Below are positions 31,444 through 53,800 of a stretch of DNA of 64,000 nucleotides, one piece after another. Position 1 is the first letter of the stretch, and the number at the start of each line of letters is the position of its first letter. Made by a program: the position numbers and the translations under genes. Source of the stretch: Candidatus Gottesmanbacteria bacterium UBA6580 (GTDB lineage: Bacteria > Patescibacteriota > Microgenomatia > UBA10105 > UBA927); the NCBI GenBank assembly GCA_002433895.1, contig DJJA01000001.1, positions 15,438 through 79,437 of the forward strand, in the 5' to 3' direction. A model generated the notes under the pieces. It had not been told where the DNA came from and ran no database searches. It saw nothing but the letters and a program-made list of their open reading frames with translations.

Positions 31444-31980
31444 CTATCGCAGCTTTTTCAGGATTTTTGCTGGTACACCAACGACAACGGTTCCTTTGGC
31501 AACATCTCTGGTAACGACCGCGCCGGCTCCCACGATGCTTCGTTCACCAACGGTTACCCCAGGCAAAATGATAGCTCCAGTACCCACATATGCCCCTCGT
31601 TTAAAAAGAACCGGTGATTCGCGGGTCGGATACACTTCCTGCAGCGGATGATCCGCAAATCCGACATTTATATGAGAAACAATATTCGTTCTGTTTGAAA
31701 TCGTCACGTCATCTTCAAGCGTCACGCCGCCCCGCACATCAACCATAACGCCATCACCCAAAAAGCACCGGTTCCCGATGGATAACCGGGAAAATCCGTA
31801 GTGATACACATTCACAAACTGCACATCAAATAACACACTATCACGGCCAATAGAAGCGCCTGCTAACCGAAGCAACCACACACGCACCGGTGGCAACGCT
31901 ATGTGTAAAAACCAGGCATACACGCCAAACAAAACAAACCGTACCGCTTTCATGAGTCCGATAGATTGGAATGCTTTCAT
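31444..31980 (-). CDS. Hexapeptide-repeat (LbH) sugar acetyltransferase (WbbJ/PglD-like)
   Basis: Left-handed beta-helix hexapeptide repeats (GAYVGTGAIILPGVTVGERSIVGAGAVVTRDV). Its start lies 1 nt after the stop of the upstream GT2. Confidence 0.8.
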   Translation of the reverse strand: MKAFQSIGLMKAVRFVLFGVYAWFLHIALPPVRVWLLRLAGASIGRDSVLFDVQFVNVYHYGFSRLSIGNRCFLGDGVMVDVRGGVTLEDDVTISNRTNIVSHINVGFADHPLQEVYPTRESPVLFKRGAYVGTGAIILPGVTVGERSIVGAGAVVTRDVAKGTVVVGVPAKILKKLR

Positions 31981-31981
31981 A

Positions 31982-32719
31982 TTATGAACTCTTGAGCCTG
32001 CCTCTCAGTGCCCATAACTGTATCATGTAATCGACAGTATCTTTGATGATATTCACTGATGAAATCTTGTCAAAACGCCGCAAAAACAATACCGGCTCCT
32101 CAGCAATGCGAAGTCCGTGGCGCATGGCGTACACCATAACTTCCGTATCCCAAAACCAACCTTTGTGCTGAACATCTTGGAGCACCGGAAGGATTTTTTT
32201 CCGGTGAAAAAATTTATATCCTGTCTCCGTATCCATCCCACCGGTACCAATGAGCTTGTTGGACAACCACTGGTATCCGCGGCTCAACACCTCCCGCACT
32301 ACCGCCCGCGGACTCGTACGGTAAAAGCGACGCCCGATGACCACGTCTGCCTGATTTTTTAGGATGCGCGACACCATTGAGGGGATATACACCGGCGACA
32401 CTTCACAATCGATATCAATATACCCGGTCACTGTACCACGGGATGCTTTCAGCCCGTCAGCCACGGTCTGGCCTCGGCCGGAATTTACTGTGTGATAGAT
32501 TGCCCGGATGTTTTTATGCGCCTTGCAGTAGTCCCGTATGAGACGTGCAGTGCCATCTTTGCTATGGTCGTCAACAAATATCATTTCGTACGAATACCGG
32601 CTGTTTTCCAACACATCCCGTATACGGGCCACACTCTCACGAAACAGCCCTTCTTCGTTATAACAAGGCAATACGATAGTTAATTGAGGGGATAAATGCT
32701 TCACTCTGTCGCTCATCAT
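31982..32719 (-). CDS. Polyprenol-phosphate hexosyltransferase-like GT2 (DPM1/GtrB-like)
   Basis: LTIVLPCYNEEGLF...EMIFVDDHSKDGT...GYIDIDCEV. Confidence 0.85.
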   Translation of the reverse strand: MMSDRVKHLSPQLTIVLPCYNEEGLFRESVARIRDVLENSRYSYEMIFVDDHSKDGTARLIRDYCKAHKNIRAIYHTVNSGRGQTVADGLKASRGTVTGYIDIDCEVSPVYIPSMVSRILKNQADVVIGRRFYRTSPRAVVREVLSRGYQWLSNKLIGTGGMDTETGYKFFHRKKILPVLQDVQHKGWFWDTEVMVYAMRHGLRIAEEPVLFLRRFDKISSVNIIKDTVDYMIQLWALRGRLKSS

Positions 32720-37564: not shown

Positions 37565-39596
37565 CGGGTTTTCTCAACCATAGCAACAAAAGTATCCCCG
37601 TCAACACGCTTATTATCCCACCAAAAAGGAATATTGTCGGCCGAAACTCATAAACGATTTCGTGTTTTCCTTGGTGTATAAAAAGTGTTCGGAATACATT
37701 ATTTTCTTTATCAATACGGGCCGTTTTTCCATCAATTGTGGCGGTCCATCCGGGATACCACACCTCTGAACTGCGGAGCGTGGTTGCACACGTACTCGAA
37801 ACAGCAAGAACAACTTTGTTGGGGGTGTACGAGGTGACATCCGCAGTTCCACATGACGGATCGCTCAAGAAATACCGGGGAAACACCGTGGTATTTTCGT
37901 ACAATCTATATTTATTCCGGTCGTCGTCCCACACAAGTTTGTACCGCATATTTCCGGCAAACGGGTCGTTTTCTGGAGGAACGATAATGTATTTGATATT
38001 CAAAAAATCGATAACTCCCGCGTTTGCTGCAGACAGATACGGCACCTGCACATCATGCGATAACATCGCCTGCTCCCCGCTTCGGCCAATAGAACGGGCT
38101 ATGTATTCAAAGTACGGCCGGAGTATGGATGGGCTATAGCCAGTCGCAGAATAAATACCATATGACATACTACTGTCAAAATCCAGCGCATCGCGAGCCG
38201 GTAACCAGACGCCAAAATTCTGTAGTGTCCGGTATGGTGCAATATCCTGTGTGAGCATATGTACGAGCTCATGGTCATGGCGGCGCTCAGGCACTTGCCG
38301 GAGCTCGATAAAGTGGCGCGCAAACATTACCATTTCGATAACGACAAGTCCGCTTATGAGGACGCCCGCCCACTGGCGCCATTTTTTTGTCGCCGCCAGC
38401 AGATACGTAAACCCTACGCCACAAAGAAAAGATAAACCCAATACCACTAAAATGAGATGGCGCGCTGGTATCCGCACATACCGGTACATCGGTAATACCT
38501 CCCACAAAATACGCTGGATATCTATTGGGGCATGAGATGCAAGTGATATCCATACACCAAATACCGCTATCGCGACACAGGCTACTCCCATAACCATGCG
38601 TTTATTTTTTATACTCACGACCGCACCAACAATGGCGAGTAGTAAGCCGATAACGCCCACAAATGCGCTGTGTTCTCCAAAATTTGGGGCAGGACCCTGA
38701 TAGGTATATTGATCGCCAAAGAAAAACGGATTGAGCATTTGTATAAGGCTTTGAAAACTCCATGCGCCATATGATGCCCATGAATACGGCAATTGAAACG
38801 TCCTGATACTCGCACGGAAAAACTCTGAAACGGGAAGCAAGTGAAAGGCGGCAAGTCCTATACCAATAACCCCCACCCGCAATGCCAACCCCACCGGCTT
38901 CCATTGCTTTATTGCATAACTTCGGGCAATGGCGACAAATCCAACGGCAATAACTGTCATGAATGCCATGGTCTGGTATCCGGAAAGCAACTGGAGGGCA
39001 AAAACTCCCGCAGCTATAGCAATCCGTTTTTTATTGCCTTCTGTCATCGCCATGTCGATCGCCCACACAACCCACGGCATCCAACTTGCCGCTGCGATAA
39101 CATCCACGTGCCCGGACCATGTCCGCGCGGCAAAAAAACCCGACAATCCAAACACCACCCCGCTCACCCAGGCACCTATACGAAGTAACCGCTGCTCATG
39201 TTTCTGTTTGTTACCGATGAATAGTGAATAGTTCATTGTTCGCGCCAGCGTGTACATTCCCGTCATCGCCCACACAACGTGGAGCGCGGTATGCCACGCG
39301 TACGCAATATTGAGAGGTACAAATATGAATAGCCAGTTTACGGGGTACCAGATGTTCACAATGGGATCAGCGATAAACGGTTGACCGCCAAAAATATACG
39401 GGTTCCACCACGGGAATATACCCTGGCGTATCCACAGATTAAAAAACTCACGGAAAAAGTAATATGACCTATGGATATCATCGCCATAGATCATCATGTC
39501 AGCCGCGGGCACAAGCGCCTCACCATATACAACGACAGTCACGAGGATAAAACCAATAATTGAAGCCATCATCATACGCTCATGGAATATACACAA
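37533..39596 (-). CDS. YfhO-family membrane protein (possible start at 39575)
   Basis: N-terminal region YGDDIHRSYYFFREFFNLWIRQGIFPWWNPYIFGGQPFIADPIVNIWYPVNWLFIF resembles the conserved YfhO N-terminal block (D..QY.DFF.YF...GG...Y.LSP.NWLFF). Multiple TM helices. Confidence 0.65.
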   Translation of the reverse strand: MCIFHERMMMASIIGFILVTVVVYGEALVPAADMMIYGDDIHRSYYFFREFFNLWIRQGIFPWWNPYIFGGQPFIADPIVNIWYPVNWLFIFVPLNIAYAWHTALHVVWAMTGMYTLARTMNYSLFIGNKQKHEQRLLRIGAWVSGVVFGLSGFFAARTWSGHVDVIAAASWMPWVVWAIDMAMTEGNKKRIAIAAGVFALQLLSGYQTMAFMTVIAVGFVAIARSYAIKQWKPVGLALRVGVIGIGLAAFHLLPVSEFFRASIRTFQLPYSWASYGAWSFQSLIQMLNPFFFGDQYTYQGPAPNFGEHSAFVGVIGLLLAIVGAVVSIKNKRMVMGVACVAIAVFGVWISLASHAPIDIQRILWEVLPMYRYVRIPARHLILVVLGLSFLCGVGFTYLLAATKKWRQWAGVLISGLVVIEMVMFARHFIELRQVPERRHDHELVHMLTQDIAPYRTLQNFGVWLPARDALDFDSSMSYGIYSATGYSPSILRPYFEYIARSIGRSGEQAMLSHDVQVPYLSAANAGVIDFLNIKYIIVPPENDPFAGNMRYKLVWDDDRNKYRLYENTTVFPRYFLSDPSCGTADVTSYTPNKVVLAVSSTCATTLRSSEVWYPGWTATIDGKTARIDKENNVFRTLFIHQGKHEIVYEFRPTIFLFGGIISVLTGILLLLWLRKPATGADLSNIG

Positions 39597-41253
39597 TGAC
39601 CTGATTGTTCCGGTATACTTCCTTCAAAAACGGATACTTCAGTTTCAAATCACTTACTCCCCCATCTTCCCGCTCCTGGGGGCCAAAAAATATGTACGCC
39701 GCTCCGATTGTGGCCACAAAATCACGCGCCTGTGTCTCGTGCATATTTCCGGCAAAAAACTCGCGCACTTTTTCTTTTTTTCCTTCAAATGCCACCGTGT
39801 TGTCGTGCCCCGCATATACCACATGACCGATATAGGCAGGAATATAATTGCCGGCAGTTGTCTCACTCAGCACGACACCGTTTCCTTTGCCGTGATCATA
39901 AATAAACTGCATACCGGATACAAAGTCTTTTAATGGATACATCACATAACTTCCTGTGGGAACCAACGGCAGTGTTGCCCTGATTTTATGATCAACAAAA
40001 TCCCGCTGCCAGAGATACGAAGAATACATATGGAATAACCCAACAATCACTAATACAACAGGAAAAAATGCTGCAATAGGTGCTGTAAGATACTTCCGGG
40101 AAGCATAAAAAAGATATGCGGTAAGTACCCCGAGCGGTACGTGCGGTATCATTTCAGAAAACCTCAGCGGACTCTGTTGTGGAATAAACGCAAATACCCC
40201 CAAAAGCAATCCCCATCCCAACACCCAAGATACGGCAGGAAAAAGCATAGTCTCCCAACGGTATAGCGCCACAATAAGCCCCAATACACCCAATGGCAAC
40301 AGAGGACCCATGGCCTTGCCATATTCAATATAATCAAACGGAAGTGGCCTAATTATGTCTACCTCTGCAAGACGTTTCCAGGGATATACCCCCGTCATCA
40401 ACGCGAGATATGCTAAAGAAGCCACGCTTGTCATAACGATTGCCGCATACGGCACTATCCATTCCCGTTTCCATCCCAAAAGCATGACCCATATACCCAT
40501 AACCACATAGATAAACAGCAGTCCGGGTGGAAATATCATACCGAGGATAAATGAAAGTAGCCCGATAAACACGACGTTTTTACTTTGCCGGACGACTTCT
40601 TTCCGGGTAACCAACAAAATAATGGCAATAATAAGCCCCTGACCTGCCAACAAATGCGGAATAAACGTAATCCGCTGCAAACTATCCATCACCGACCACC
40701 AGGACATATACCCCCCGAATCTCCAGCTCTGCATATTGGTAAATGTTGCGGGAATGATCGTTGTATCGACTACCGCCAACAATTTCGGCCAAGATGAAGC
40801 TGTCACGGCAAGCAAAAATGCGATGAACACCCAAAATGGCTTGTCTTGCCGCAATCCGGCAAGCGATTTTTGTACAAACACCGCAACTGCTGCGAGCATT
40901 GCTACAGCCAGCACAAATCTCGCGACATGATAAATATCACCCGGCCGGTGCAGCGGCACGCGGGAAAATCTGCCTGACTGCCCCAAAAGGATATAAAACT
41001 CATGGATGAACGACCCATCATGTGGCTCGGATGTGTACCGCTCAACCGCAGTCCACCGGCCCTCAAGCCCCTGACGGATCCGGGAGAGATAAAAATTGTA
41101 ATCAGTGGGGAAATTATGAACAAGCTCGAAATGTCTATCCGCGTGAAGCTTATCCGCGCGCGACAACTCATAAAATGTTGGCACGAACGAAAACAACACA
41201 AAACATACGGTCGTGAAATAAAGGATCATTTTCCTTAACTGCATATTTCCCAT
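39580..41253 (-). CDS. Polytopic membrane protein, paralogue B
   Basis: Shared motif PTDYNFYLSRIRQGLEGRWTAVERYTSEP. At least 12 TM helices. Confidence 0.7.
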   Translation of the reverse strand: MGNMQLRKMILYFTTVCFVLFSFVPTFYELSRADKLHADRHFELVHNFPTDYNFYLSRIRQGLEGRWTAVERYTSEPHDGSFIHEFYILLGQSGRFSRVPLHRPGDIYHVARFVLAVAMLAAVAVFVQKSLAGLRQDKPFWVFIAFLLAVTASSWPKLLAVVDTTIIPATFTNMQSWRFGGYMSWWSVMDSLQRITFIPHLLAGQGLIIAIILLVTRKEVVRQSKNVVFIGLLSFILGMIFPPGLLFIYVVMGIWVMLLGWKREWIVPYAAIVMTSVASLAYLALMTGVYPWKRLAEVDIIRPLPFDYIEYGKAMGPLLPLGVLGLIVALYRWETMLFPAVSWVLGWGLLLGVFAFIPQQSPLRFSEMIPHVPLGVLTAYLFYASRKYLTAPIAAFFPVVLVIVGLFHMYSSYLWQRDFVDHKIRATLPLVPTGSYVMYPLKDFVSGMQFIYDHGKGNGVVLSETTAGNYIPAYIGHVVYAGHDNTVAFEGKKEKVREFFAGNMHETQARDFVATIGAAYIFFGPQEREDGGVSDLKLKYPFLKEVYRNNQVIVYIP

Positions 41254-41270
41254 TCTAACCTAAACCATGT

Positions 41271-41858
41271 TTGACTTTATACCCTGATGCTTGGGATAAT
41301 CCCATTATGAACACCCTGACAGACGAAGCAATCGATCAGAAACTCCGCGATAAAGTATACGAACAGGACTACTCCCCCAAACCCACTATCGAAGGTGTCG
41401 TTGTCGTGAAGATGCGTAATTTTGTGGGAGAAAACGGCGATTTCTCTGAACTCATGCGGCTTAATGAACACGGTGAGTCAGAACTCATCCCGGGCTTCCG
41501 GCTGCGACAAGTGAACCGAAGCAAACAATATCACAAAGCCATTAAGGCATGGCACCTCCACTACAAGCAGGATGAAATGTGGTATGTGCCGCCTGATGAA
41601 CACTTACTCCTCGGGCTGTGGGATGTGCGTGAAGGGTCACCAACCAAAGGAACACTCCAAAAAATCCCATTGGGAGGAGGCAATTCCATTGGCGTATACA
41701 TCCCGCGCGGTGTGGCGCATGGTGCCGCAAATTTTTCAGGAAAAAAGGCAAATGTTTATTATTTTGTAAACAATCAATTTAACCCCGCGGAACCCGACGA
41801 ACATCGCCTCCCCTGGGATGCTGCGGGCGCTGAATTTTGGGAAGCCCCCAAAGAATAA
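41271..41858 (+). CDS. dTDP-4-dehydrorhamnose 3,5-epimerase (RmlC)-like cupin sugar epimerase
   Basis: PTIEGVVVVKMRNFVGENGDFSEL...LLGLWDVREGSPTKG...VYIPRGVAHGAANFS matches the RmlC fold motifs (D.RG.F.E; DLR..SPTFG; IP.G.AHGF). Confidence 0.7.
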   Translation: MTLYPDAWDNPIMNTLTDEAIDQKLRDKVYEQDYSPKPTIEGVVVVKMRNFVGENGDFSELMRLNEHGESELIPGFRLRQVNRSKQYHKAIKAWHLHYKQDEMWYVPPDEHLLLGLWDVREGSPTKGTLQKIPLGGGNSIGVYIPRGVAHGAANFSGKKANVYYFVNNQFNPAEPDEHRLPWDAAGAEFWEAPKE

Positions 41859-43326: not shown

Positions 43327-44874
43327 ATGGTAATCGTGTACACCCTCCTTATTGCCACCATCGTTTTGCTTGCCACCATCGAAAATATCGCACCGTCGAT
43401 CATAGGATTCCTTGCAACACCACCCGATTATGTTTTCCTCGGCACGGTGCACCACCCCGGCGACTATTTTTATTACCTTTCACAATTTACCCAGGGTGAA
43501 AGCAGGTGGCTCACTACCATCGATCTTTTTACCAGCGAACAACTAACACCATCGCTCATCGGTTGGAGCAACGTACTGACCGGAAAAATGTTCTCCCTTG
43601 TGCACCTCTCGCCGGTTACGGCATATCAGATGAGTATCGTCGTACTCACTGCAGGAGTACTTACCGCGGCGTACATGCTCGCTCATACCGTCCTCCGGAG
43701 CCGTAGCGCTGCCACCATAGCACTGTATTTCTTCGCATTGTTTCACGCGTTCCCCGTCCTCCGCGACGGCAAGCCGTCATACGGTGACTATTGGAACAAT
43801 TTCGCGGTTCCCCGGGTACGTTTCGGAGGCGTACCGCACCAACTGATGCTTCATACAGCCTCCATGATACTTCTATATGGCCTTATACAATGGGTGCAGT
43901 ACAAAAAGTATTCGTGGAGAATGGGGCTGGTTATTTGCGTCGCGAGCTTTGTGCTTGCCAGCCTGCAACCGGCGCTGTGGGGTATTATCGCGGCTACAGC
44001 GGTAGCGACTGCAGCCTACCGCAAACAATCTGTCCGCACGCTTTTCATCCTGCTTTCCGCTTCGGGTGTGGCACCACTCCTTTATATAACATCGCTTTTC
44101 CGCACGTTGCCGTTTCTTCAGTTGAAGCTGTGGGAAGCTGGCGAGCAAAACGTGCTTACCCTGGAACACTTTATCCTTGCCACAGGACCCATACTGCTTC
44201 TTTCCTTATTTGCCGTGCCGTTTTTTATGACCCCAAAAACGTACAGCAGATACCTAAGTGCCGCACTCGCTTTTTTCCCTATCCTTCTATTTTTCTCGCC
44301 TATCCCTGCGTATATCGGTATATCCAACGCGCGGGTACTCTCTCCCCTCACTATCCTCCTGCTTTCGGTTATTGCCGCGGCAGGCATAGAAAGTCTCGTG
44401 GCACACAAAAAAATAATTGTACGGACAATGGGCGTTTTACTCGTCGCAATACTCTCGTTCACCTTGCTGCCCAATCATCAAAAAACAATAAAGCTCGTAA
44501 GCACATTTGACGCCAACAATGTATACCAGTATCTTCCGGCGTCGGAGTACCGCTTCTTCCGGGAAATTGGCGCAACGCACTCTTCACGTGATATATTCCT
44601 GGTCTCCCCACCGTATAACCTGGTATTTCCGGCGCTTTCCGGCAAACGAAGTTACCACGGACATCCGCTCCTCACGATCGAAGCGGAGCAAAAAGACAAA
44701 AACGCGAACATGGTGTTTACCGGGGCGTTAACCGGCCATGAGCTACGGTCTTTTCTCAGCACTACCGGGATCACCCATATAATCGCGCCACAAGAAATTG
44801 CCCACTTTGCTTCGCTCCCCTTTCTCAAACGCACAACAGCCTCAAAAACCCTGATTTTATACGTGGTCGAATAG
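43327..44874 (+). CDS. Polytopic membrane protein, paralogue C
   Basis: Shared motif PPDYVFLGTVHHPGDYFYYLSQFTQGESRWLTTIDLFTSEQ. About 13 TM helices. Confidence 0.7.
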   Translation: MVIVYTLLIATIVLLATIENIAPSIIGFLATPPDYVFLGTVHHPGDYFYYLSQFTQGESRWLTTIDLFTSEQLTPSLIGWSNVLTGKMFSLVHLSPVTAYQMSIVVLTAGVLTAAYMLAHTVLRSRSAATIALYFFALFHAFPVLRDGKPSYGDYWNNFAVPRVRFGGVPHQLMLHTASMILLYGLIQWVQYKKYSWRMGLVICVASFVLASLQPALWGIIAATAVATAAYRKQSVRTLFILLSASGVAPLLYITSLFRTLPFLQLKLWEAGEQNVLTLEHFILATGPILLLSLFAVPFFMTPKTYSRYLSAALAFFPILLFFSPIPAYIGISNARVLSPLTILLLSVIAAAGIESLVAHKKIIVRTMGVLLVAILSFTLLPNHQKTIKLVSTFDANNVYQYLPASEYRFFREIGATHSSRDIFLVSPPYNLVFPALSGKRSYHGHPLLTIEAEQKDKNANMVFTGALTGHELRSFLSTTGITHIIAPQEIAHFASLPFLKRTTASKTLILYVVE

Positions 44875-44909: not shown

Positions 44910-45737
44910 ATGGTACACTTTCGTATTGAAATGACTACTGCCGAGTTTCGACCGGGACCGGACATCATAAATCCGCACGCTCCTAACTTCAGTGAGCTTC
45001 ACTATCACGTTCGCATAGACGCGATGACACCCGACGATAAACGCTACTGGCTCTCCGATCAAATCCTCAAAGAGGAACACCGGCTCCTCCGTGAACCATA
45101 CAATATGCCGCAGGTACGCGCTGAGGCAAAAATCATGTTTTTGACCGGTGGCCCCAAATCAGACGTTACCGAAGCCCGTGACTTTGACGGCAACCTTATT
45201 CATACCCGGCATTTGGATCACCCGCGACCGATGTTTGCGGAAATCCCGGAGGCATTAAGCTCCATTTCCCACTGGTTTGACATGACCATCCAAAGTAAAG
45301 AAAACAACACGCTTCCACCATCTCCGGTCGCTCCGCTTTCTGAAATAGCCGACGTGGTATACAACATTTCCCATCTTCTTACGCTCGATGAATATTTCTG
45401 GGAAGAATACAACGAATACTTAAAGCGTATCGCGGGATCGTTGGGATATGATTTGGATCAATTACTGACTATTGCGGTCTATAAATACAATTTCCGGCTG
45501 GGACAAGGAAAATCACAAAAAAATATCGGCATTGAAAACGAACTGATCAATAAAGTACTCGCAAAAACGGGACCGGATGGTAAACCATTATTCCCGGCAC
45601 CAAGCGAATCCCAATTCCAAAAAACATTTCACACTCTGGCTGAAATCCAGACGCTCTTAAACACGCGACTCGAACAACTCCGGCAGGAATACGAATGGGA
45701 AAAAAACCCGGTTCTCCCCAAAGACACCACAAAGTAA
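44910..45737 (+). CDS. Hypothetical cytoplasmic protein
   Basis: No TM segments. Acidic and helical C-terminus. An alternative start at 44931 is possible. Confidence 0.5.
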   Translation: MVHFRIEMTTAEFRPGPDIINPHAPNFSELHYHVRIDAMTPDDKRYWLSDQILKEEHRLLREPYNMPQVRAEAKIMFLTGGPKSDVTEARDFDGNLIHTRHLDHPRPMFAEIPEALSSISHWFDMTIQSKENNTLPPSPVAPLSEIADVVYNISHLLTLDEYFWEEYNEYLKRIAGSLGYDLDQLLTIAVYKYNFRLGQGKSQKNIGIENELINKVLAKTGPDGKPLFPAPSESQFQKTFHTLAEIQTLLNTRLEQLRQEYEWEKNPVLPKDTTK

Positions 45738-45772: not shown

Positions 45773-47623
45773 GTGTCACACAAGACCCGATTACTGCTGT
45801 GTATTGGTCTCGCCCTGTTACTCAGGGTTATACTTATCCCTAACCCGGGATTTGAGGCGGATATCTCGTTTTGGAAATCGTGGGGGCTCGCTACCGTCGA
45901 TTATGGCGCGGTAGAAGGGATGAAACTCACCAACAATAATTACCCCACTCCGTTTACCTACACATTAGGCGCTATGGTGTGGGTATATAAGCTGTTTGCG
46001 GATCCGCATAATTTCCATGAATTCTGGAGCAATACCAATATATTGTTTTTGACCATCAGCAAAATGCTGCCTATTCTGGCGGATTTCGGCATTGCGGCCA
46101 TTATCCTGTACATCGGCAGGCACACTCACTCTACCAGCCGGCGATTTGGCTTCCCTGAAGTTAAATTATCATTCTTCCGCCTCACTTTTTACGAATTGCT
46201 TGCGGTGATGTACTTACTAAACCCCATCTCCCTCATGGACGGCGCGTGGTGGGGGCAGGTTGACTCGCTGGGCGTATGTATCTTTTTGTGTGCCGTGGTT
46301 TTGGCACTCAAAAAACAACCGATGTGGGCAGGGGTCATATTCATGCTCGCTATGATGACCAAGCTCCAAAACATCATTTACGCACCGATATTTTTCCTCT
46401 TTATATGGCAATACCTGGGCTATACCGGGCTGATAGCTGCAATTGGTGGTGCCACCCTCGGATTTTTTGGTCTGAATATAGAATTTATACTCTCCAAAAA
46501 CGCCGACCGGGTGCTTGCGTCGCTTACTGAAAATTACGATTACTTCCCATGGATGAGCCTGATGGCATACAACCTCTGGTGGATTGTGTCCGGAGCGCAA
46601 GGGCTTATAACCTCCGACAAGCTTACCGTGCTTGGCATACTCAACGCAAAAACCGTTGGACTCATGATATTTAGCGCTATGTACCTGCTTGCGGTAACCC
46701 GCCAACTGCTGGATAAAACAAAAACACAGGCGTCACCTGTCTTACAAACATTTATCGAGAGCCTCATCATCGCAAACTCGGCATTTTTTCTTTTCCAGAC
46801 GCAATCACATGACCGATACGCTTTTCCCCTCACGGTATTCCTCCTGCTGTGGACACCCTTTTTCATCACGCAAGCAGGATCGAAGTACGTCATGCTGCGG
46901 ACACGGCTACTGGGTATCGCCTATATCGTGTTTTCCGTATGTTATTTCTACAATTTGCACACTGCCCTTGTGGTGAATTACCCGCAAAACGGGCTCCCGT
47001 TGCTCTCAATGCTCACACAACCATTTTTTACCCTTTCCACCGCATACATCCAGCTCGGATTATTTTTCCTATTTTTATATGCGATCATCCATTCTTCAGC
47101 AGTGTCACGTCGTACAGCGCTCTTTGTGTTTGTCATTCTTACCTCATCACTTGTGTATCTCAATCTGCCGCTTATCCAAAAAAAGCCAATCTTCCTCACC
47201 GCCCTATCGCCTTTTATCAGTGAGCAGGCATATGGAACACGCCAGATACATAAATCCGTGCAAAGCTCATTTGGCGGCCCATACAAATGGACCCGGCTTT
47301 CTGTACAATATTTATTCTATAAGCACGGCATTGGCACGCACGCAAACTCAAAGCATGTCTTTGACATCGCGGGCAAATTTACCCGGTTTACGGTAGATTA
47401 CGGTATAGACACCGAAGCAGGCACCAAAGCATCGGCAATATTCGAAATTTACGGGGACGGGACACTACTCTTCCGGTCACAACCCATGGGGCGCTTTGAC
47501 CTTCCAAGGCATGCCGAAGTGAATATCACCGGCGTACGCCACTTATGGTTGGTAACCACAGACGCGGGAGATAACAATTATGATGATCATACCGATTGGT
47601 TAAACCCAATCCTTTGGCCATAA
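45773..47623 (+). CDS. GT-C-like membrane protein fused to a C-terminal NPCBM (novel putative carbohydrate-binding module) domain
   Basis: GTG start. About 12 TM helices. The C-terminal ~120 aa GIGTHANSKHVFDIAGKFTRFTVDYGIDTEAG...IFEIYGDGTLLF...NITGVRHLWLVTTDAGDNNYDDHTDWLNPIL match the NPCBM signature GxHAxS...F...GxDD...F.VxxDG...LxLxVTDAGDGxxxDHADWAxA. Confidence 0.75.
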   Translation: MSHKTRLLLCIGLALLLRVILIPNPGFEADISFWKSWGLATVDYGAVEGMKLTNNNYPTPFTYTLGAMVWVYKLFADPHNFHEFWSNTNILFLTISKMLPILADFGIAAIILYIGRHTHSTSRRFGFPEVKLSFFRLTFYELLAVMYLLNPISLMDGAWWGQVDSLGVCIFLCAVVLALKKQPMWAGVIFMLAMMTKLQNIIYAPIFFLFIWQYLGYTGLIAAIGGATLGFFGLNIEFILSKNADRVLASLTENYDYFPWMSLMAYNLWWIVSGAQGLITSDKLTVLGILNAKTVGLMIFSAMYLLAVTRQLLDKTKTQASPVLQTFIESLIIANSAFFLFQTQSHDRYAFPLTVFLLLWTPFFITQAGSKYVMLRTRLLGIAYIVFSVCYFYNLHTALVVNYPQNGLPLLSMLTQPFFTLSTAYIQLGLFFLFLYAIIHSSAVSRRTALFVFVILTSSLVYLNLPLIQKKPIFLTALSPFISEQAYGTRQIHKSVQSSFGGPYKWTRLSVQYLFYKHGIGTHANSKHVFDIAGKFTRFTVDYGIDTEAGTKASAIFEIYGDGTLLFRSQPMGRFDLPRHAEVNITGVRHLWLVTTDAGDNNYDDHTDWLNPILWP

Positions 47624-47676: not shown

Positions 47677-50007
47677 ATGAAGCCTTACGAAAAAATAATC
47701 GGTCTTTGTTTGGTGTTGTTTGCCATTGGGTTTAACCTATGGATGTATCGCGCAGAGCCCACCGCGCTCACCGATCCAAACGATAACACATTCCAGTTCG
47801 CTTTGGTCGACAGAACAAACCAAATATGGTCTTATGCACAACAAAAGTGTTCTGGCATAACTGCGCCGTTTTGCATGATGTTTTACCTTACCGATCATTG
47901 GGTACCAAACTGGGCACAGGGGTACAACCTCCCGTACTACTACTCGCACCTTCCGCAAATCATCATTGTGGCGGGTTTCCGGCTCCTATCAGCAACCGGT
48001 CTGCCAATATCACTGTTTACGTATTATCACTGGGTGATTTACCTACTGCTTTCACTATTTCCCCTCTCATTATTTGTAGCGCTTCGCATCGTCGGACTAC
48101 CGATACTGACGGCAGGCATAGGAGCAATAATTGCTTCACACCTGTCTACTGACGGACTCTACGGCATCGATCCTCCATCTTTTCTTTGGCGGGGTTATGG
48201 CCTCACAAGCCAGCTCTTTGCCATGATATGGCTTCCGCTCGCACTCGCTTACGCTTTCCGGCTGTCTACCAGCAAGACAAAACAACATGATCTTTTCTTT
48301 ACCGCGATATTCCTTGGATTAACCACCGCGGGGCACTTAGGCTTGGGTATCATTGCATTTTTAAGTATCGGTATTTTAGCAATTAGCCCATCTATACAAT
48401 CCATACTCACCAATCAATGGAACAACGAAACGGCACATAACCTATTTATCGCCATCAAAAAGATGTTCATCGTTTTTGGCATTGTTGGACTCTTGCTTGG
48501 TTACTGGATCCTTCCGGTCCTGAAAGATAGCAATTATCACAACATCTCCGTCTGGGACGGCATATGGAAATTCGATTCCTTCGGATATCGCGAAGTGCTC
48601 AAAAATTTATTTAATGGCGACCTCTTTGACTTTGGGCGCTTCCCCATCCTCACCGCATTTGTATTTCTTGGTATTTTTTCTGCACTTACCTCTCCTCACT
48701 ATGCATCGTTTGCGTTTCTTTTTATGTTCTGGCTCCTCATGTATTTTGGCCGCACTACCTGGGGAGGGTTGCTCAACATTATTCCTGGTATGGATGACTT
48801 CCACATCTCGCGGTTTATTGTCGGGGTGCACATTGCCGGGCTTTTTCTTATCCCAATGGGTGCCGATTGGCTAACAAAAATAAGCACTTTATACGTTCCG
48901 CCTCGCCGTCAATTTGTTACTTTGTTATGTTGTCATTTTATTATTCTCATCGCTCTCGTTATACTCGTCTTCCCCCAAACGCTCCGGTATGCATCACACA
49001 ACGATATATTGATTTCCCGCGCCAACGAACACTACACCAACAAGGCATCAGACATCACCCTGCTACTCACCACGATCAACCACAGACTATCAGAAAAACC
49101 CGGGAGAGTGTTTGCGGGGCGCGGTGGTGGATGGGGTAAAGAATTCCGCGTCGCGGAAACCCCAATGTATATGTACCTTTCGACGTACGGCATCCCGGTT
49201 ATTCTTTGGCTCCCGGAAACATGGTCGCCGAACTCAGATACCGAACAATACTTTTCTGAAAACAAACTAGCTCACTACGCGCTCTATAACGTCCGGTATG
49301 TGGTAACCCCGACCAATCTCCCATCTGAAAATATCCAGCCGTTCTGGAAGCTCTTAGAGGCTGGAGAGACATGGAAACTCTACGAGGTAGCCACGCCCAC
49401 ATCGGGAGTGGGCGAAGCTGTATTTGGCTATATAACCACTGGCGTAAAACCAGCGATTGTCTCCAGCGATAAATCCGACTTCCGGAGCCTCATCAGACTG
49501 TGGATGCACTCTGATGCGCCAGGCAACTTTCTGTACCCTGAACTCACCTTTGACCGCGACTATCCCCGCTCCACGGGTCTACCCAACTTCCGTATGACCG
49601 ATGAAGCGACGTATAAAGTGCCGGATGGTTCGTTACACAATCTGTTTACCGAAGTGCCCAGCTATATGAGCCCACAGAGTTCACCCGGCACTACGCCGCG
49701 CATAATCAGCCAGAACAGCACGGATGATATAGAATTTAACGCGACCGTGGCAAACACCACGCGTTGTGTGTCCTGTATGATTATCCTCCGGCAAACTTTT
49801 CACCCCTCATGGCAGGCAACAATAGACGGAAAACGGGTAAAACCATTTGCGGTATTTCCGTTTTATACCGCAGTTATGATGGAAGAGCCGGGCGAACATA
49901 CGGTCACGTTTTCATACACACCAACACTCACCAAAAAATTGCTTTCCGGAGTTGGCGTCATGACGCTACTATTACTCTTTGTCATCGCGCGGAGAAAACG
50001 ACAATAA
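47677..50007 (+). CDS. Large polytopic membrane protein (GT-C/YfhO-like architecture) with C-terminal extracytoplasmic domain and terminal TM
   Basis: About 14 TM helices in the N-terminal 430 aa, then a ~300-aa soluble region and a final TM (GVGVMTLLLLFVIARRKRQ). Confidence 0.65.
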   Translation: MKPYEKIIGLCLVLFAIGFNLWMYRAEPTALTDPNDNTFQFALVDRTNQIWSYAQQKCSGITAPFCMMFYLTDHWVPNWAQGYNLPYYYSHLPQIIIVAGFRLLSATGLPISLFTYYHWVIYLLLSLFPLSLFVALRIVGLPILTAGIGAIIASHLSTDGLYGIDPPSFLWRGYGLTSQLFAMIWLPLALAYAFRLSTSKTKQHDLFFTAIFLGLTTAGHLGLGIIAFLSIGILAISPSIQSILTNQWNNETAHNLFIAIKKMFIVFGIVGLLLGYWILPVLKDSNYHNISVWDGIWKFDSFGYREVLKNLFNGDLFDFGRFPILTAFVFLGIFSALTSPHYASFAFLFMFWLLMYFGRTTWGGLLNIIPGMDDFHISRFIVGVHIAGLFLIPMGADWLTKISTLYVPPRRQFVTLLCCHFIILIALVILVFPQTLRYASHNDILISRANEHYTNKASDITLLLTTINHRLSEKPGRVFAGRGGGWGKEFRVAETPMYMYLSTYGIPVILWLPETWSPNSDTEQYFSENKLAHYALYNVRYVVTPTNLPSENIQPFWKLLEAGETWKLYEVATPTSGVGEAVFGYITTGVKPAIVSSDKSDFRSLIRLWMHSDAPGNFLYPELTFDRDYPRSTGLPNFRMTDEATYKVPDGSLHNLFTEVPSYMSPQSSPGTTPRIISQNSTDDIEFNATVANTTRCVSCMIILRQTFHPSWQATIDGKRVKPFAVFPFYTAVMMEEPGEHTVTFSYTPTLTKKLLSGVGVMTLLLLFVIARRKRQ

Positions 50008-50014
50008 CACGTTT

Positions 50015-50845
50015 ATGCCATACAACACGCGGTACTTCCTGCTGTGCGTAGCGCTTTTTGCGGGCAGCGTCTCCCCTGCCGTCCGGCCATCACATCCTCC
50101 TCAATCTGCCGATATACTTATTGTTGCTCCCCACCCCGATGATGCGACACTTTGCTGTGCCGGATTCATACAACAGGCTATTTCCAAAGGACAATCAGTC
50201 CATATTCTCGAGCTGACAAACGGTGAAGCATACGCGAGTGCCGCAGCCTATCTATCCAAAAAACCGGTCACCTTGGTCACCACTACTGATCATCTGCGGC
50301 TGGGTAACGCACGCAAAAAAGAAGAATACCGTGCCATGGGTATCCTCGGACTTCCTTCGCGGAACATCACCTTTTTAGGTTATCCGGACGGACTTCTTGA
50401 AGAGGTCTACAACACCCGTGGTAACGCGCCCCTTCCCAGCCGGTACACCGGTCTTTCTGCTTCCCCAGAAACCGGAAGTTCGTATACCAACACTACAGCA
50501 ACCAATGACATTGCGGCAGCCATACTCCGCACCAAACCAGCATATATTATCGTTCCTGATATACAGGATACCGCGCTTGACCATAGAATTACCCGCCAAT
50601 TTGTTGATGATGCAATAAAAAAGACCGCGTACCGCGGACAACTCCTCACCTACATCGTCCACAGCGATACTGCTCTTCCCTTTCCAAGTAGCGCTTCGCT
50701 ACTACGCATTCATCTCACGGCGTATGAACAACATCTGAAACAAAATGCGATAACTGCTTACCGGACACAACATGCTATTGACCGGGAATATCTCTTCTCA
50801 TTTATCCAGGATGAAGAAGTGTTTGTTCAGTTAACACACCCTTGA
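50015..50845 (+). CDS. PIG-L/LmbE-family N-acetylglucosaminyl deacetylase, secreted or lipid-anchored (start at ATG 50015)
   Basis: ILIVAPHPDDATLCCAGFI...NGEAY...NITFLGYPDG are PIG-L family motifs. Signal peptide MPYNTRYFLLCVALFAGSVSPA. The track start 49979 overlaps the upstream gene. Confidence 0.8.
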   Translation: MPYNTRYFLLCVALFAGSVSPAVRPSHPPQSADILIVAPHPDDATLCCAGFIQQAISKGQSVHILELTNGEAYASAAAYLSKKPVTLVTTTDHLRLGNARKKEEYRAMGILGLPSRNITFLGYPDGLLEEVYNTRGNAPLPSRYTGLSASPETGSSYTNTTATNDIAAAILRTKPAYIIVPDIQDTALDHRITRQFVDDAIKKTAYRGQLLTYIVHSDTALPFPSSASLLRIHLTAYEQHLKQNAITAYRTQHAIDREYLFSFIQDEEVFVQLTHP

Positions 50846-53800
50846 GGCGGAAGATATTCGCGCCCTTCAAAGACTTCATTTTTGAAGTAATTATACCGGT
50901 CTTCGTTATATGCCTTGAGTTCGCATGCCTTAAACACGTAACCCGCCCCCTCTTCCGCAAACTCTTCCGCGCAGTCGGGATTTTCGTAATCGCTAAACGG
51001 TGCCCCATCGTAGGTCCCGTCCGGCTTACACCCTATCATGGAATGGAACCCGACCGGCGTGTTAGTGTGCTGGCCTACGGAAAACATATTGTAAAATCCT
51101 GCAAGCGGTACAAACACCGGAATAGTTAATTGGTCCACGGCGTACGCATGCATCACTTCATGTACCACCGCATACGTCATGAGCTCCGGCGCCTGCTCCG
51201 TAAGTAAAATACGCCGGTGGTACGGGAATGTATTATTATCAACGCCTCCGATATTATCCCGTCCGCTCCCCCGTAACAGCTGCCAAAAAGACTGCCAACT
51301 GGGGTCATCGCCGTACAAAATACCGGAAGGATACACGACTATCTCAAAATCTTTTTTGAGAAATCCGGGAGGAAGCAACGCCAATGCGTCATACACCTGA
51401 TTTTTAATATTATTGACCCCGGTAATAACATCCGCGCGTTTATTTAACCCATCGGTAATAGTTACATTCCCTTCAGCGTTACAGCTTATGGGCATACCGT
51501 CGACACTGACGTGCGCATTTATATCCAATGCTCCTGGTACCGCGTAGCGGTCACAACGCTCTCCTTCATAGGCTATACACGCACCCTGCTGACATCCGTG
51601 CACCGGACAGGAGGCAACCTGCTGGATAGCAGCCTGTTTGTCTGAATCAAATAAATATACGTCATTCCCTTGGCATACCATATCGATAACCGCGCTTTGC
51701 GGACGCACATACCCTACCGGACCCAAACAATCAGCAATATCCCCTGATTGTTTACATGTTTGGTTTCCTAAACACGTCCGTACCACGTTTCCGGTGGACC
51801 GCTCCACTACCGATGATCCATCAGCGCTACAAGTAAATTCACGGTAATACGACATTGTCGCCTGTTCGTCGATAACAAGACATGAATTCATCACCCCCGC
51901 GTTACTATCAAATCCATAAAGCATCGGGGTCCGCCGCATTTCTTCGGTACACACTTCAGGAAACACCATCTGCGCTTTTTGCACGCAATCATTATTCACA
52001 CACCCGTCCAGACACCGGAACGACTGGTTCACATCAATCGAAAAACCTCCGGGGGCCATCATTGTACGCTTGAGCAGGTATTGTCCGTCCACCGAACAAA
52101 CAAAATCTTCGTACGACGGCAACTGCGTGCAACAGCCAGTGGCACTACACTGCTGACCCGCAGGACACAGTCCATTTTCGGCACACGAACCCAACGTACA
52201 CTGTGATACTACCGGTGGTGGTGGTGGAGGAGGAGCGGTTATGTACCATATTCCCGCTTTTAGTGCCCCATCGACGAGAAAGCCAAGTGGCGGCACCGAC
52301 AATACGAGCATGCGTACATAACGGCGGGCGTCTGCCTCCATCTGCTCCCGTTCATTTCTATTTCTGATACCGCGCACTACCCTTCTTGGTGACCTTCCCC
52401 ATGTGGGACATATACCATCGCGGGTCGTCTCAGCAGCAAAAACCGCATACTCACTCCTCATGGCATAACAGTCGGGATTGGTAAACGTGTCTATTATTGC
52501 TTTCGACAACACTTCCCCTTTCGACTTCGTATCTCTCGCTTGCGGCTGCTCGAGTGCTTCCCGGGTCTTACCGGCTGTGACAACATCCTGATCCTGTGTT
52601 TCCGCAGTCAACTGGTCAATGCGAACTCTTGGTAGTTGATTAAGCGGTGTTGTAGGCAGCGAAGTTGGTCTATTTTCCTGTACCTGCTCTTGCTGGTCAT
52701 TTTCCGTTTGTTGCTCATCAATCGCTACACGGGTAGCCTGCCGGGTAATTTCAGCATCCACTCCTACAGTTTCGGCCATAATGGCAGTCAATCTGCTTGC
52801 CCGCTCATTTCGTACTGCGCGTGAAAGATACCGCTGTAATGGGTTGCTATTCCACACCCGCATTAACTCACCGGTCGAAATAGAGATATTTACCGATCGA
52901 GGATCTTTGTATAACTCGGGATGTTTATATATGTAAATAAGCGCATCGATGTCATATAGCACCCCTTGCGGCGTTTCGACCTCTAGTAAATCATCCAACC
53001 GAAAGCCAAGAGTCTGTATAGCAAACATGGCCATCTGTAAATTTGTTGTGCCGATCAAACGGGTTGGTCGCTTGAACCAAGGCATCAGTCGTAGCGCATC
53101 AACCAAACGACCCATGTCAATGATCCCCATGGTTAAGGTTTGCTGGTTATAATCAACATTATGCAGTGTGCCAAACGGTAAAAAGTGTAGCCGCCATGCG
53201 ACAAGAAGTTTATCCGAGCGCTCAATACCAATTGAGCCAATAAAGTCTTTTCCGCGCACACGTTCATCCACTGTCCGCAATTCTTCCACCGTCAGTGAAG
53301 CCAATACTTCTCGATATGCCTTATCAGAAAAGTTCTGTGCCATTAACTGTTTCTCATCGTCGTTCAATCGTGGTAAGTAGGAAACGATCTCTTCTTCCGA
53401 AAAACGAACATTTAACATTTGGTTCAGTGTTTCCCGCTTCACTTCAGAAAATCGGGAGGTCTTGATCATTTCCCGCAACATATCCCGCACGTCTTTCGTA
53501 TTGCGCACCTGGAGAATACTTTGAATCAACACGATTCCCATATCTACACGCCTACCGATAGTTTGTGGCGTAATACCGTCGAAAGTCGACTGCAGCAACG
53601 CGAGCATTTCCTGAACCACGGCTGTTTTATCAGTAATATTAAGCTCATATCGCGCAATCTCACTTATACGTCTTGCAAGACGCTCTATAGCTGGGTTGTA
53701 TGCATCGGTATAGACTGTTGCAGGATTCCTAAAAAACTGCCGTTGTGACACTATCCTAAGCAGAGTCGCTTGCACCACAATAGGATGTGTTCGCTCTAAA

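What the first reader, a model, noticed from the sequence alone, without database searches (positions are those of the whole stretch)
45773..47623. Fusion of a GT-C-like polytopic membrane domain to a C-terminal NPCBM carbohydrate-binding module
The C-terminal ~120 aa carry an unusually clear NPCBM signature: GIGTHANSK...FTVDYGIDTEAG...IFEIYGDG...VRHLWLVTTDAGDNNYDDHTDWLNPIL. NPCBM normally accompanies secreted glycoside hydrolases such as GH98. Attached to a 12-TM GT-C-like body it may act as an acceptor-glycan-recognition or processivity module. I consider this domain combination uncommon. The gene uses a GTG start.
Basis: partly seen in the sequence, partly recalled or inferred. Interest (0 to 1): 0.55.

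Follow-up and report, generated by a model that had tools for sequence, protein, structure and literature searches.

The report
Membrane glycosyltransferase with outward-facing sugar-binding module
This gene encodes a membrane-embedded sugar-transferring enzyme with a sugar-binding module on the outside of the cell; the design is real and conserved but untested, and it follows a principle already shown for other bacterial cell-wall enzymes.

Summary
ORF 45773-47623 (+, GTG start, 616 aa) ends in a clear NPCBM/CBM51 domain (Pfam E=5e-30; solved CBM51 structures E=1e-19 to 1e-30; Foldseek TM 0.81).

The N-terminal ~440 aa form a GT-C glycosyltransferase. The AlphaFold model (pLDDT 85) best matches ALG6, ALG3, PimE and Gpi14. 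A broad family profile hits ALG6 and GPI-mannosyltransferase-I by sequence (E~4e-10). The invariant Asp30 aligns with the Asp of ALG6's GDFEAQRHW motif, which by an assumed tag offset is its catalytic Asp69.

The body has 13 membrane helices, not 12. Relatives without the module stop just after helix 12. All 32 assessable representatives that carry the module have one extra hydrophobic helix before it. This, plus the positive-inside pattern, puts the module outside the cell.

The fusion is not rare. All 120 listed homologues (Microgenomates/Patescibacteria) have it, as do 39 of the 150 best 50%-identity representatives, including Eremiobacterota and Planctomycetota proteins. GT-C enzymes with acceptor-binding C-terminal modules are already proven (EmbC, AftD, GT136). 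I file this as a new variant of a known kind with modest interest. Donor, acceptor and ligand remain unknown.

The parts
45773..47623 (+). Whole gene: GT-C glycosyltransferase fused to a C-terminal CBM51 (616 aa, GTG start, stop included)
   Evidence: ORF listed. There are 399 homologues, and the best 120 are all full-length and all carry PF08305. The exact protein is found on 11 metagenome contigs; one of the three records shown is labelled bioreactor sludge metagenome.
45773..47092 (+). GT-C core, aa 1-440, about 12 transmembrane helices. The first seven helices plus the first outer loop form the conserved GT-C module.
   Evidence: AF2 model of aa 1-477: pLDDT 85.2, pTM 0.88. Foldseek against PDB: ALG6 6snh E=3.2e-5 with TM 0.56/0.56, then ALG3, PimE, PIGU and Gpi14. 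Broad profile A4 against PDB sequences: ALG6 4.4e-10 and GPI-MT-I 4.6e-10. Pfam GT87 reaches only 18 bits against a cutoff of 25.
45845..45862 (+). PGFEAD motif (aa 25-30) at the start of the first outer loop. Asp30 is the predicted catalytic base.
   Evidence: D30 is invariant in 48 close homologues and in 82 relatives of 21-54% identity. In the HMMER alignment it pairs with the Asp of ALG6 'GDFEAQRHW'. That Asp is native D69 if the chain's 18 extra residues are an N-terminal tag, which I assume. D69 is called the catalytic base in PMC12653191.
46238..46264 (+). DGAWWGQVD (aa 156-164), the short outer loop between helices 3 and 4
   Evidence: W160 and D164 are invariant, and G161 and Q162 at least 90% conserved, across A4. 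The loop has net charge -2. It parallels the functionally tested PimE residues D160, Y161 and Q163 (PMC12041525). This is a positional analogy, not a structural superposition.
46352..46372 (+). MMTKLQN (aa 194-200). Lys197 is predicted to bind the donor phosphate.
   Evidence: K197 is invariant and Q199 at least 90% conserved across A4. It is analogous to PimE K195, which coordinates the polyprenyl-phosphate. This is inference.
46808..46819 (+). HDRY (aa 346-349) at the outer end of helix 9/10, predicted donor-phosphate site
   Evidence: H346, E/D347, R348 and Y349 are at least 90% conserved across A4. The motif aligns with ALG6 'VHEK'. PimE H321/H322 play an analogous role.
47099..47161 (+). 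Extra transmembrane helix 13 (aa 443-463), which carries the C-terminus across the membrane
   Evidence: AF2 helix 443-463. All 32 assessable CBM-bearing representatives have a hydrophobic 17-mer (mean hydropathy 1.5-3.0) between helix 12 and the CBM. Most non-fusion relatives whose match reaches helix 12 end 4-18 aa after it with no further hydrophobic segment.
47162..47221 (+). Short linker (aa 464-483) between helix 13 and the CBM
   Evidence: AF2 secondary structure. N464 and P466 are invariant. The segment carries a mean of 2.4 K+R, the one feature that mildly disagrees with an outside location.
47222..47608 (+). NPCBM / CBM51 beta-sandwich domain (aa 484-612)
   Evidence: Pfam PF08305 E=5.2e-30. 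PDB sequence hits: ZmpB CBM51 7js4 3.2e-30 and GH95 CBM51 2vmg 2.7e-19. Foldseek: 2vmh E=7.5e-9, TM to target 0.81, 32% identity. The GIGTH, DYGID, TTDAGD and DDHTDW motifs are conserved.
47677..50007 (+). Conserved downstream partner: a 776-aa polytopic protein, YfhO-like, with a C-terminal membrane anchor
   Evidence: An orthologue of 711-833 aa follows the fusion gene directly in all 7 loci examined. Two orthologues have weak precomputed PF09586 YfhO hits. Its C-terminus resembles the window's YfhO-family ORF 37533-39596 (E=1.2e-4).

Best explanation
The gene encodes a glycosyltransferase of the GT-C superfamily that works on the outer face of the cytoplasmic membrane.

Shown: the fold and the conservation pattern. 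Inferred: the enzyme takes a sugar from a polyprenyl-phosphate-sugar donor that is made in the cytoplasm and flipped outward. Asp30 at the start of the first outer loop acts as the general base on the acceptor hydroxyl. Lys197 and His346/Arg348 hold the donor phosphate.

The ancestral 12-helix core ends in the cytoplasm. This lineage added a 13th helix that carries the chain out again, followed by a ~15-residue linker and a CBM51 lectin domain. The CBM therefore sits just above the active site.

Inferred from EmbC, AftD and GT136 ORF12: the CBM binds the acceptor or product glycan of the cell envelope, probably a galacto- or HexNAc-configured epitope as in known CBM51s. This would raise the local acceptor concentration, or keep the enzyme on a growing or repetitive glycan.

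The gene probably works together with the invariably adjacent YfhO-like GT-C protein. Two short GT2 enzymes elsewhere in the locus resemble polyprenyl-phosphate-sugar synthases and could supply the donors.
For: Domain identities: CBM51; GT-C fold, plus a profile-level sequence link to ALG6 and Gpi14.

Catalytic-type residues: D30, W37, W160, D164, K197 and N267 are invariant across 82 relatives of 21-54% identity. D30 aligns with the Asp of ALG6's GDFEAQRHW motif, taken to be catalytic D69.

Topology, from three observations. (1) Mean K+R is net positive in all six predicted inner segments (N-terminus and five loops); outer loops EL1, EL2 and EL4 are net negative and the two short C-terminal outer loops are about neutral. 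(2) PimE, a structural neighbour, has 12 helices with both termini cytoplasmic (PMC12041525). (3) Helix 13 is present in 32 of 32 assessable CBM-bearing representatives, and non-fusion relatives stop right after helix 12.

The full-length AF2 model keeps pTM 0.84, which suggests a defined docking of the CBM on the membrane domain.

Precedent for acceptor-binding CBMs on GT-C enzymes: PMC11127046.

Locus context: at least 8 polytopic GT-C-like or Wzy-like proteins. Two short GT2s best match ArnC, AglJ, PpgS and PgfS-type polyprenyl-phosphate glycosyltransferases. The locus also has a WecE-like aminotransferase, an RmlC-like epimerase and an acetyltransferase.

Conserved pairing with a YfhO-like protein in 7 of 7 loci.
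Against: There is no experimental datum for any member of this family. Donor, acceptor and CBM ligand are unknown.

The query misses the Pfam thresholds of GT87 (18 bits against 25) and has no ALG6 hit of its own, so no CAZy family can be assigned.

I could not measure on which side the CBM sits or how close it is to Asp30.

The linker after helix 13 is lysine-rich (+2.4 K+R), which mildly contradicts an outside location.

A crude NJ tree suggests at least 10 gains or losses of the CBM, so the module is dispensable for the core reaction.

No GtrA-type flippase was recognised in the window.

CBM51 ligand-contact residues were not checked, because the structural papers are not in the held library.
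Confidence: 0.6

Rival explanations
1. The enzyme is a protein O-glycosyltransferase, PMT- or PgfM-like in role. Together with the YfhO-like neighbour it decorates the giant secreted protein encoded convergently next door. The CBM51 reads sugars already attached, so that dense, repetitive glycosylation can proceed.
For: A convergent giant ORF of 5,270-13,555 aa lies within about 4 kb downstream in 6 of 7 loci. The window also has PMT_2-type GT-C genes. One short GT2 best matches PgfS of the S. mutans adhesin glycosylation system, far below cutoff.
Against: The closest structural and sequence neighbours are ALG6, ALG3, PimE and Gpi14, and all act on lipid-linked glycans, not proteins. The fusion also occurs in Planctomycetota next to a Tad pilus locus, with no giant gene in the 10 kb of upstream flank held; almost no downstream flank was available. 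Synteny among fairly related genomes may reflect ancestry alone. The giant proteins are only patchily similar to each other.
Confidence: 0.12
2. The CBM51 is a surface lectin for attachment to a host cell or to environmental polysaccharide, and the membrane domain serves mainly as an anchor. Patescibacteria are often epibionts.
For: CBM51 modules elsewhere target glycans foreign to the producing organism: galactose, blood-group antigens and GlcNAc (PMC3267712 and PMC13003899). The closest homologues are from Patescibacteria.
Against: Catalytic-type residues of the membrane domain are invariant over 21-54% identity, so the domain is under selection as an enzyme, not as an anchor. The linker is only about 15-20 residues, which keeps the CBM at the membrane surface beneath any wall or S-layer. 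The fusion also occurs in Planctomycetota and Eremiobacterota. The gene sits inside a glycan-biosynthesis locus.
Confidence: 0.07
3. The NPCBM is cytoplasmic and acts as a sensor, as proposed for NPCBM domains in bacterial conflict systems. Alternatively, the membrane domain is a catalytically dead scaffold like PIGU.
For: NPCBM domains have been proposed as intracellular invader sensors (PMC8195603). PIGU is among the fold matches. The linker after helix 13 is K-rich.
Against: The strict coupling of an extra transmembrane helix with the CBM (32/32) only makes sense if the CBM must be on the side opposite the ancestral cytoplasmic C-terminus. A cytoplasmic CBM would put three K/R-rich loops outside. 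PIGU has replaced the EL1 acidic motif with SSW (PMC12653191), whereas D30 is invariant here. No conflict-system effector or NTPase domains are nearby.
Confidence: 0.04

Closest known systems
GT136 ORF12 of Citrobacter youngae and mycobacterial EmbA/B/C and AftD (GT-C enzymes with periplasmic C-terminal CBMs)
   Same: The architecture logic is the same: a polytopic GT-C body, then a beta-sandwich carbohydrate-binding domain on the outer side. [quoted passage not shown] The full-length model also matched EmbB (7bvc_B, E=1e-5).
   Different: The GT-C clade is different: the N-terminal domain alone matches EmbB only at E=0.29. The CBM family is different too: CBM51/NPCBM here, against immunoglobulin-like or other lectin-like folds there. 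The protein is much smaller (616 aa against about 1,060 for EmbB) with a single CBM. No biochemical data exist.
ALG6 (GT57), PimE (GT87), Gpi14/PIG-M (GT50) and ALG3 (GT58): lipid-phosphate-sugar-dependent GT-C enzymes
   Same: These are the best fold matches (ALG6 TM 0.56). A profile-level sequence match gives E~4e-10 to ALG6 and Gpi14. The catalytic-type Asp is at the equivalent EL1 position. The Lys/His phosphate-site pattern resembles PimE. The 12-helix core resembles PimE and Gpi14.
   Different: The query fails Pfam thresholds for GT87 and has no ALG6 hit of its own. It has a 13th helix and an extracytoplasmic lectin domain. ALG6 lacks a substantial luminal domain, and Gpi14 borrows one from a separate subunit, Pbn1.
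CBM51 modules of Clostridium perfringens GH95, GH98 and ZmpB
   Same: It matches the same Pfam family (PF08305) and the same fold, with 31-32% identity to GH95 CBM51 and shared GIGTH, G-[VI]-D and D-[AG]-G-D...DH motifs.
   Different: Those modules are appended to secreted hydrolases and peptidases that degrade host glycans. Here the module is tethered to a biosynthetic membrane enzyme. Ligand specificity is unknown.

Membership tests
NPCBM / CBM51 (Pfam PF08305) | Score above the Pfam gathering threshold | tested here: met
   104.7 bits against a cutoff of 23.9, E=5.2e-30, aa 484-612, profile positions 14-134 of 137. All 48 aligned homologues also match.
NPCBM / CBM51 (Pfam PF08305) | Sequence and fold similarity to structurally solved CBM51 modules | tested here: met
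   Family profile against PDB: 7js4 3.2e-30, 2vmg 2.7e-19, 2vmh 3.6e-19. Foldseek: 2vmh E=7.5e-9, TM to target 0.81.
NPCBM / CBM51 (Pfam PF08305) | Binds carbohydrate (Gal, blood-group A/B or GlcNAc in characterised members), with ligand-contact residues conserved | not tested
   The papers describing the contacts are not in the held library. Motifs shared with 2vmg are conserved, but contact residues were not mapped. Binding itself needs an experiment.
GT-C glycosyltransferase superfamily | Polytopic fold matching solved GT-C enzymes (conserved 7-helix module plus a first outer loop with interface helices) | tested here: met
   N-terminal AF2 model pLDDT 85.2. The top meaningful Foldseek hits are all GT-C folds: ALG6 (E=3.2e-5, TM 0.56), ALG3, PimE, PIGU and Gpi14. 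Helices 28-53 and 59-73 lie in the first outer loop.
GT-C glycosyltransferase superfamily | Conserved acidic catalytic residue in the first extracytoplasmic loop | tested here: met
   D30 is invariant in 82 relatives. It aligns with the Asp of ALG6's GDFEAQRHW motif. That Asp is native D69 if the chain's 18 extra residues are an N-terminal tag. D69 is described as the catalytic base in PMC12653191.
GT-C glycosyltransferase superfamily | Uses a polyprenyl-phosphate-linked sugar donor on the extracytoplasmic face | not testable with these tools
   Support is indirect only. K197 and H346/R348 are conserved at positions analogous to the phosphate ligands of PimE. Candidate polyprenyl-phosphate-sugar synthase GT2s are in the window.
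GT87 (Pfam PF09594, PimE-like mannosyltransferases) | Score above the Pfam gathering threshold | tested here: not met
   18 bits against a cutoff of 25, E=0.0027. Only 23 of 48 homologues match at E<=1, best 1.1e-5. PimE ranks third among fold hits, with E=8.9e-3.
GT57 (Pfam PF03155, ALG6/ALG8) | Score above the Pfam gathering threshold | tested here: not met
   The query has no hit. 4 of 48 homologues hit weakly, best 0.0041. Only the broad family profile reaches ALG6 (E=4.4e-10). The relationship is therefore at superfamily level, not family membership.
GT-C enzymes with an extracytoplasmic C-terminal CBM (Emb, AftD, GT136 architecture class) | CBM located on the extracytoplasmic side, after the last transmembrane helix | tested here: met
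   This is by inference. The positive-inside pattern fits. Helix 13 is present in 32 of 32 assessable fusion representatives, and non-fusion relatives end just after helix 12. The related 12-helix PimE has both termini cytoplasmic. It was not confirmed with a dedicated topology predictor or by experiment.
GT-C enzymes with an extracytoplasmic C-terminal CBM (Emb, AftD, GT136 architecture class) | CBM binds the acceptor glycan and promotes catalysis | not testable with these tools
   Shown for EmbC, AftD and ORF12 (PMC11127046). No data exist for this family.

The most novel reading that the evidence does not exclude
In Microgenomates, the GT-C-CBM51 gene and its invariably adjacent YfhO-like GT-C form a dedicated machine that glycosylates the giant (5,000-13,500 aa) surface protein encoded convergently next to them. 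The CBM51 reads sugars already attached so that the pair can coat this very large protein. This would be a protein-glycosylation system specific to candidate-phyla-radiation bacteria and tied to their giant genes.
Probability: 0.1. Interest if true: 0.6.

Novelty: new variant of a known kind. Interest (0 to 1): 0.3.

Why it matters
Patescibacteria (candidate phyla radiation) are mostly uncultured, and their cell-envelope chemistry is almost unknown. This family offers a testable handle. The soluble CBM51 (about 140 aa) can be expressed alone and used on glycan arrays, or as a probe on enrichment cultures, to find out which sugar epitope these cells display. The GT-C domain belongs to a large family that existing Pfam models recognise only weakly or below threshold: 2,877 50%-identity clusters at E<=1e-3.

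For glycobiology in general, the clean coupling of 'one extra helix plus a lectin' is a neat natural example of how a 12-helix GT-C core acquires an acceptor-binding module. It also extends CBM51 from degradative enzymes to a biosynthetic one. It does not overturn any concept, because acceptor-binding CBMs on GT-C enzymes are already established.

Tried and rejected
- Foldseek with the full-length model was dominated by the CBM, so I spent the second prediction on the N-terminal domain alone.
- PDB sequence searches with the close-family profiles found no GT-C structure. Only the broadened 82-sequence profile did.
- Gregg 2008 (CBM51 structures), Pluvinage 2021 (ZmpB) and Bloch 2020 (ALG6) are not in the held library. 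CBM51 ligand-contact residues were therefore not mapped, and the ALG6 residue numbering was cross-checked through PMC12653191 instead.
- A literature search for Patescibacteria + GT-C + glycosyltransferase returned nothing. NPCBM + glycosyltransferase + transmembrane returned only unrelated contexts.
- I looked for a GtrA-type flippase and further NPCBM or same-family GT-C copies in the window and found none.
- PDB sequence searches for the 275-aa upstream protein and the 776-aa downstream protein found nothing.
- Model coordinates are not exposed, so I could not measure the CBM-to-active-site distance or its membrane side directly.
- I rejected filing the protein as GT87 or 'Gpi18-like' because the curated threshold is not met.
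Full report
**1. Observation**

The ORF is exactly as reported: 45773..47623 on the + strand, 616 aa, GTG start. All quoted peptide strings are present. Pfam places NPCBM/NEW2 (PF08305) at aa 484-612 with E=5.2e-30 and 104.7 bits against a cutoff of 23.9.

A profile of 48 homologues matches solved CBM51 modules by sequence: ZmpB 7js4 at 3.2e-30 and GH95 CBM51 2vmg at 2.7e-19. The AlphaFold model superposes on 2vmh with TM 0.81 to the target and 32% identity. PF08305 corresponds to CAZy CBM51 (PMC3267712).

The GTG start is supported by the alignment of homologue N-termini. The 80%-identical P0002 also starts VSHKTR.

**2. The membrane body**

Pfam gives only a sub-threshold GT87 hit: 18 bits against 25 for the query. 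23 of 48 homologues hit GT87 at E<=1, and 4 of 48 hit Alg6_Alg8.

An AF2 model of aa 1-477 is confident (pLDDT 85.2, pTM 0.88). Its Foldseek hits in the PDB are led by GT-C enzymes:
- yeast ALG6 (E=3.2e-5, TM 0.56/0.56)
- ALG3
- PimE
- PIGU
- Gpi14

Close-family profiles find no solved structure by sequence. A profile of 82 relatives of 21-54% identity (A4) reaches ALG6 at E=4.4e-10 and GPI mannosyltransferase I at E=4.6e-10.

In that alignment the family's 'PGFEAD' pairs with ALG6 'GDFEAQRHW'. That Asp is residue 87 of a 562-residue chain. It equals native D69 if the chain's 18 extra residues are an N-terminal tag, which I assume from recalling the native length as 544 aa. D69 is described as the catalytic base in PMC12653191.

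Across the 82 relatives, D30, W37, W160, D164, K197 and N267 are invariant. Q162, Q199, H346, E/D347, R348 and Y349 are at least 90% conserved. This pattern parallels the functionally tested PimE residues: D58, D160, Q163, K195 and H321/H322 (PMC12041525). The body is therefore an active-looking GT-C enzyme. It is related to, but not a member of, the GT57, GT87 and GT50 families.

**3. Topology**

The AF2 helices together with the charge distribution over 48 homologues give an alternating pattern.
- Net positive segments (inside): the N-terminus, 113-138, 178-184, 312-321, 365-379 and 438-450.
- Net negative loops (outside): EL1, 156-164 and 235-291.
- About neutral (also outside): the two short C-terminal loops 340-350 and 399-418, which carry the HDRY and NYPxNG motifs.

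PimE has 12 helices with both termini cytoplasmic, and some of its helices are very short. This explains the ambiguous 183-234 region here.

The most informative test was comparative. In the 1.84-billion-protein representative library, the N-terminal domain profile finds 2,877 clusters at E<=1e-3. Among the best 150, most non-fusion relatives whose match reaches helix 12 (mostly 400-480 aa) end 4-18 residues after it, with no further hydrophobic segment. A few have longer tails, and two are double GT-C fusions. All 32 assessable CBM-bearing representatives have a strongly hydrophobic 17-mer between helix 12 and the CBM.

An extra membrane crossing that always accompanies the CBM means the CBM lies on the side opposite the ancestral cytoplasmic C-terminus, that is, outside. 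Two caveats remain. The linker after helix 13 is K-rich. I also could not inspect model coordinates.

**4. How common is the fusion?**

All 120 listed homologues (53-98% identity) are full-length, and all but one (P0098, a partial sequence) carry PF08305. Where named, they come from Candidatus Gottesmanbacteria, Woesebacteria or Patescibacteria. They are annotated 'NPCBM/NEW2 domain-containing protein' or 'Gpi18-like mannosyltransferase'.

Of the 150 best 50%-identity representatives, 39 carry the CBM. These include proteins annotated from Candidatus Eremiobacteraeota, Phycisphaerae and Planctomycetota. One of them passes the GT87 threshold in the precomputed Pfam data and sits beside a Tad pilus locus.

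A crude NJ tree with parsimony suggests at least 10 gains or losses. This should be read only as 'the association is labile'. The combination is therefore not rare, although I found no paper describing it.

**5. Context**

The window is a large envelope-glycan locus. It contains:
- at least 8 polytopic GT-C-like, YfhO-like, PMT_2 or Wzy_C proteins
- several GT2 and GT4 enzymes
- a WecE-like aminotransferase
- an RmlC-like epimerase
- a hexapeptide acetyltransferase
- methyltransferases
- a PIG-L family deacetylase

Two short GT2s (231 and 244 aa) best match polyprenyl-phosphate glycosyltransferases (ArnC, AglJ, PpgS, PgfS). The matches are far below the equivalog cutoffs. They are candidate donor synthases.

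In seven loci from different genomes, the fusion gene is always followed by a 711-833-aa YfhO-like polytopic protein. In six of the seven there is then a convergent giant ORF of 5,270-13,555 aa. The giant proteins are only patchily similar to one another.

**6. Mechanism and comparison**

The best-supported reading is an extracytoplasmically acting GT-C transferase that depends on a lipid-phosphate-sugar donor. Its tethered CBM51 would bind the acceptor or product glycan. This role has been demonstrated for EmbC, AftD and GT136 ORF12 (PMC11127046).

Characterised CBM51s bind galactose, blood-group A/B antigens or GlcNAc. That hints at a galacto- or HexNAc-type epitope, but it was not tested.

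The rival readings are less likely, for the reasons given in their entries:
- protein glycosylation of the giant neighbour
- a host-attachment lectin
- a cytoplasmic sensor or dead scaffold

**7. Verdict**

This is a new variant of a known kind: a GT-C clade that existing Pfam models recognise only weakly or below threshold, plus a CBM family not previously discussed on a biosynthetic enzyme. It follows an established design principle and is already visible in automatic annotation. Interest is modest (0.3).

Noticed in passing
window 50827-63999 (-); also L001 15354-21863, L003 13901-21710, L009 15642-21806, L010 14398-21803, L012 15368-21827: A giant ORF of more than 4,390 aa, cut by the window end, lies convergent to the GT-C cluster. 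Giant ORFs of 5,270-13,555 aa occupy the same position in 5 of 6 other genomes. They are only patchily similar to each other (for example window against L009 C-terminus: 24.5% over 208 aa). The window copy has an HEVMH (HExxH) motif near its C-terminus and a weak SAM-methyltransferase hit at aa 1004-1107.
   Followed up: partly
window 47677-50007 (+): A 776-aa polytopic protein with a large soluble region and a C-terminal membrane anchor, and no Pfam or PDB hit of its own. It directly follows the fusion gene in all 7 loci examined. Two orthologues have weak YfhO hits, and its C-terminus resembles the window's YfhO-family ORF 37533-39596.
   Followed up: partly
window 44910-45737 (+): A 275-aa soluble protein immediately upstream with no Pfam, NCBIfam or PDB match. 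Its L001 orthologue is 72% identical, more conserved than the GT-C gene itself (65%). ORFs of 263-270 aa occupy the same upstream position in L009 and L011 (not aligned). Function unknown.
   Followed up: partly
window 39580-41253 (-) and 43327-44874 (+): Two polytopic proteins of 557 and 515 aa without any Pfam hit. They are distant paralogues of each other (E~3e-5 at both ends) and are conserved in related loci. They are probably a further GT-C-like family that Pfam does not recognise.
   Followed up: partly
window 27341-28039 (-) and 31982-32719 (-): Two short GT2 proteins (231 and 244 aa) whose best NCBIfam matches are polyprenyl- or dolichyl-phosphate glycosyltransferases (ArnC, AglJ, PpgS, PgfS), all far below cutoffs. 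They are candidate makers of the lipid-linked donors for the many GT-C enzymes in the locus.
   Followed up: partly
window 29832-30974 (-), 31444-31980 (-), 41271-41858 (+): A WecE-like dTDP-4-amino-4,6-dideoxyhexose transaminase (365.6 bits against a cutoff of 375), a hexapeptide acetyltransferase and an RmlC-like epimerase. Together they suggest that an N-acetylated 4-amino-6-deoxyhexose is part of the glycan made by this locus.
   Followed up: no
window 49979-50845 (+): A PIG-L/LmbE-family deacetylase lies between the YfhO-like gene and the giant ORF. It is conserved in L001 and L009 but absent in L003, L010 and L012. With a PIG-M/Gpi14-like GT-C nearby it loosely recalls the order of steps in GPI or PIM glycolipid synthesis, but PIG-L enzymes are widespread.
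   Followed up: no
window 3627-10007 (+) and 148-3624 (+): A 2,126-aa protein has four Laminin_G_3 (concanavalin-like lectin) domains and a Rha78A-like Ig domain. It is preceded by a 1,158-aa protein with no Pfam hit. Both are probably large secreted surface proteins.
   Followed up: no
window 11745-12281 (-) and 12840-13562 (-): Two ORFs carry the prokaryotic N-terminal methylation motif and are type IV pilin or pseudopilin-like.
   Followed up: no
P0152, P0153, P0160, P0180, P0184 (representatives): Some relatives are double enzymes. Examples are two GT-C bodies in one chain (this family plus GT87-like or TMEM260/PMT_2-like), and a 1,325-aa protein with a YfhO-like region, this GT-C domain and a terminal NPCBM. 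Fusion of consecutive GT-C steps appears to recur.
   Followed up: partly
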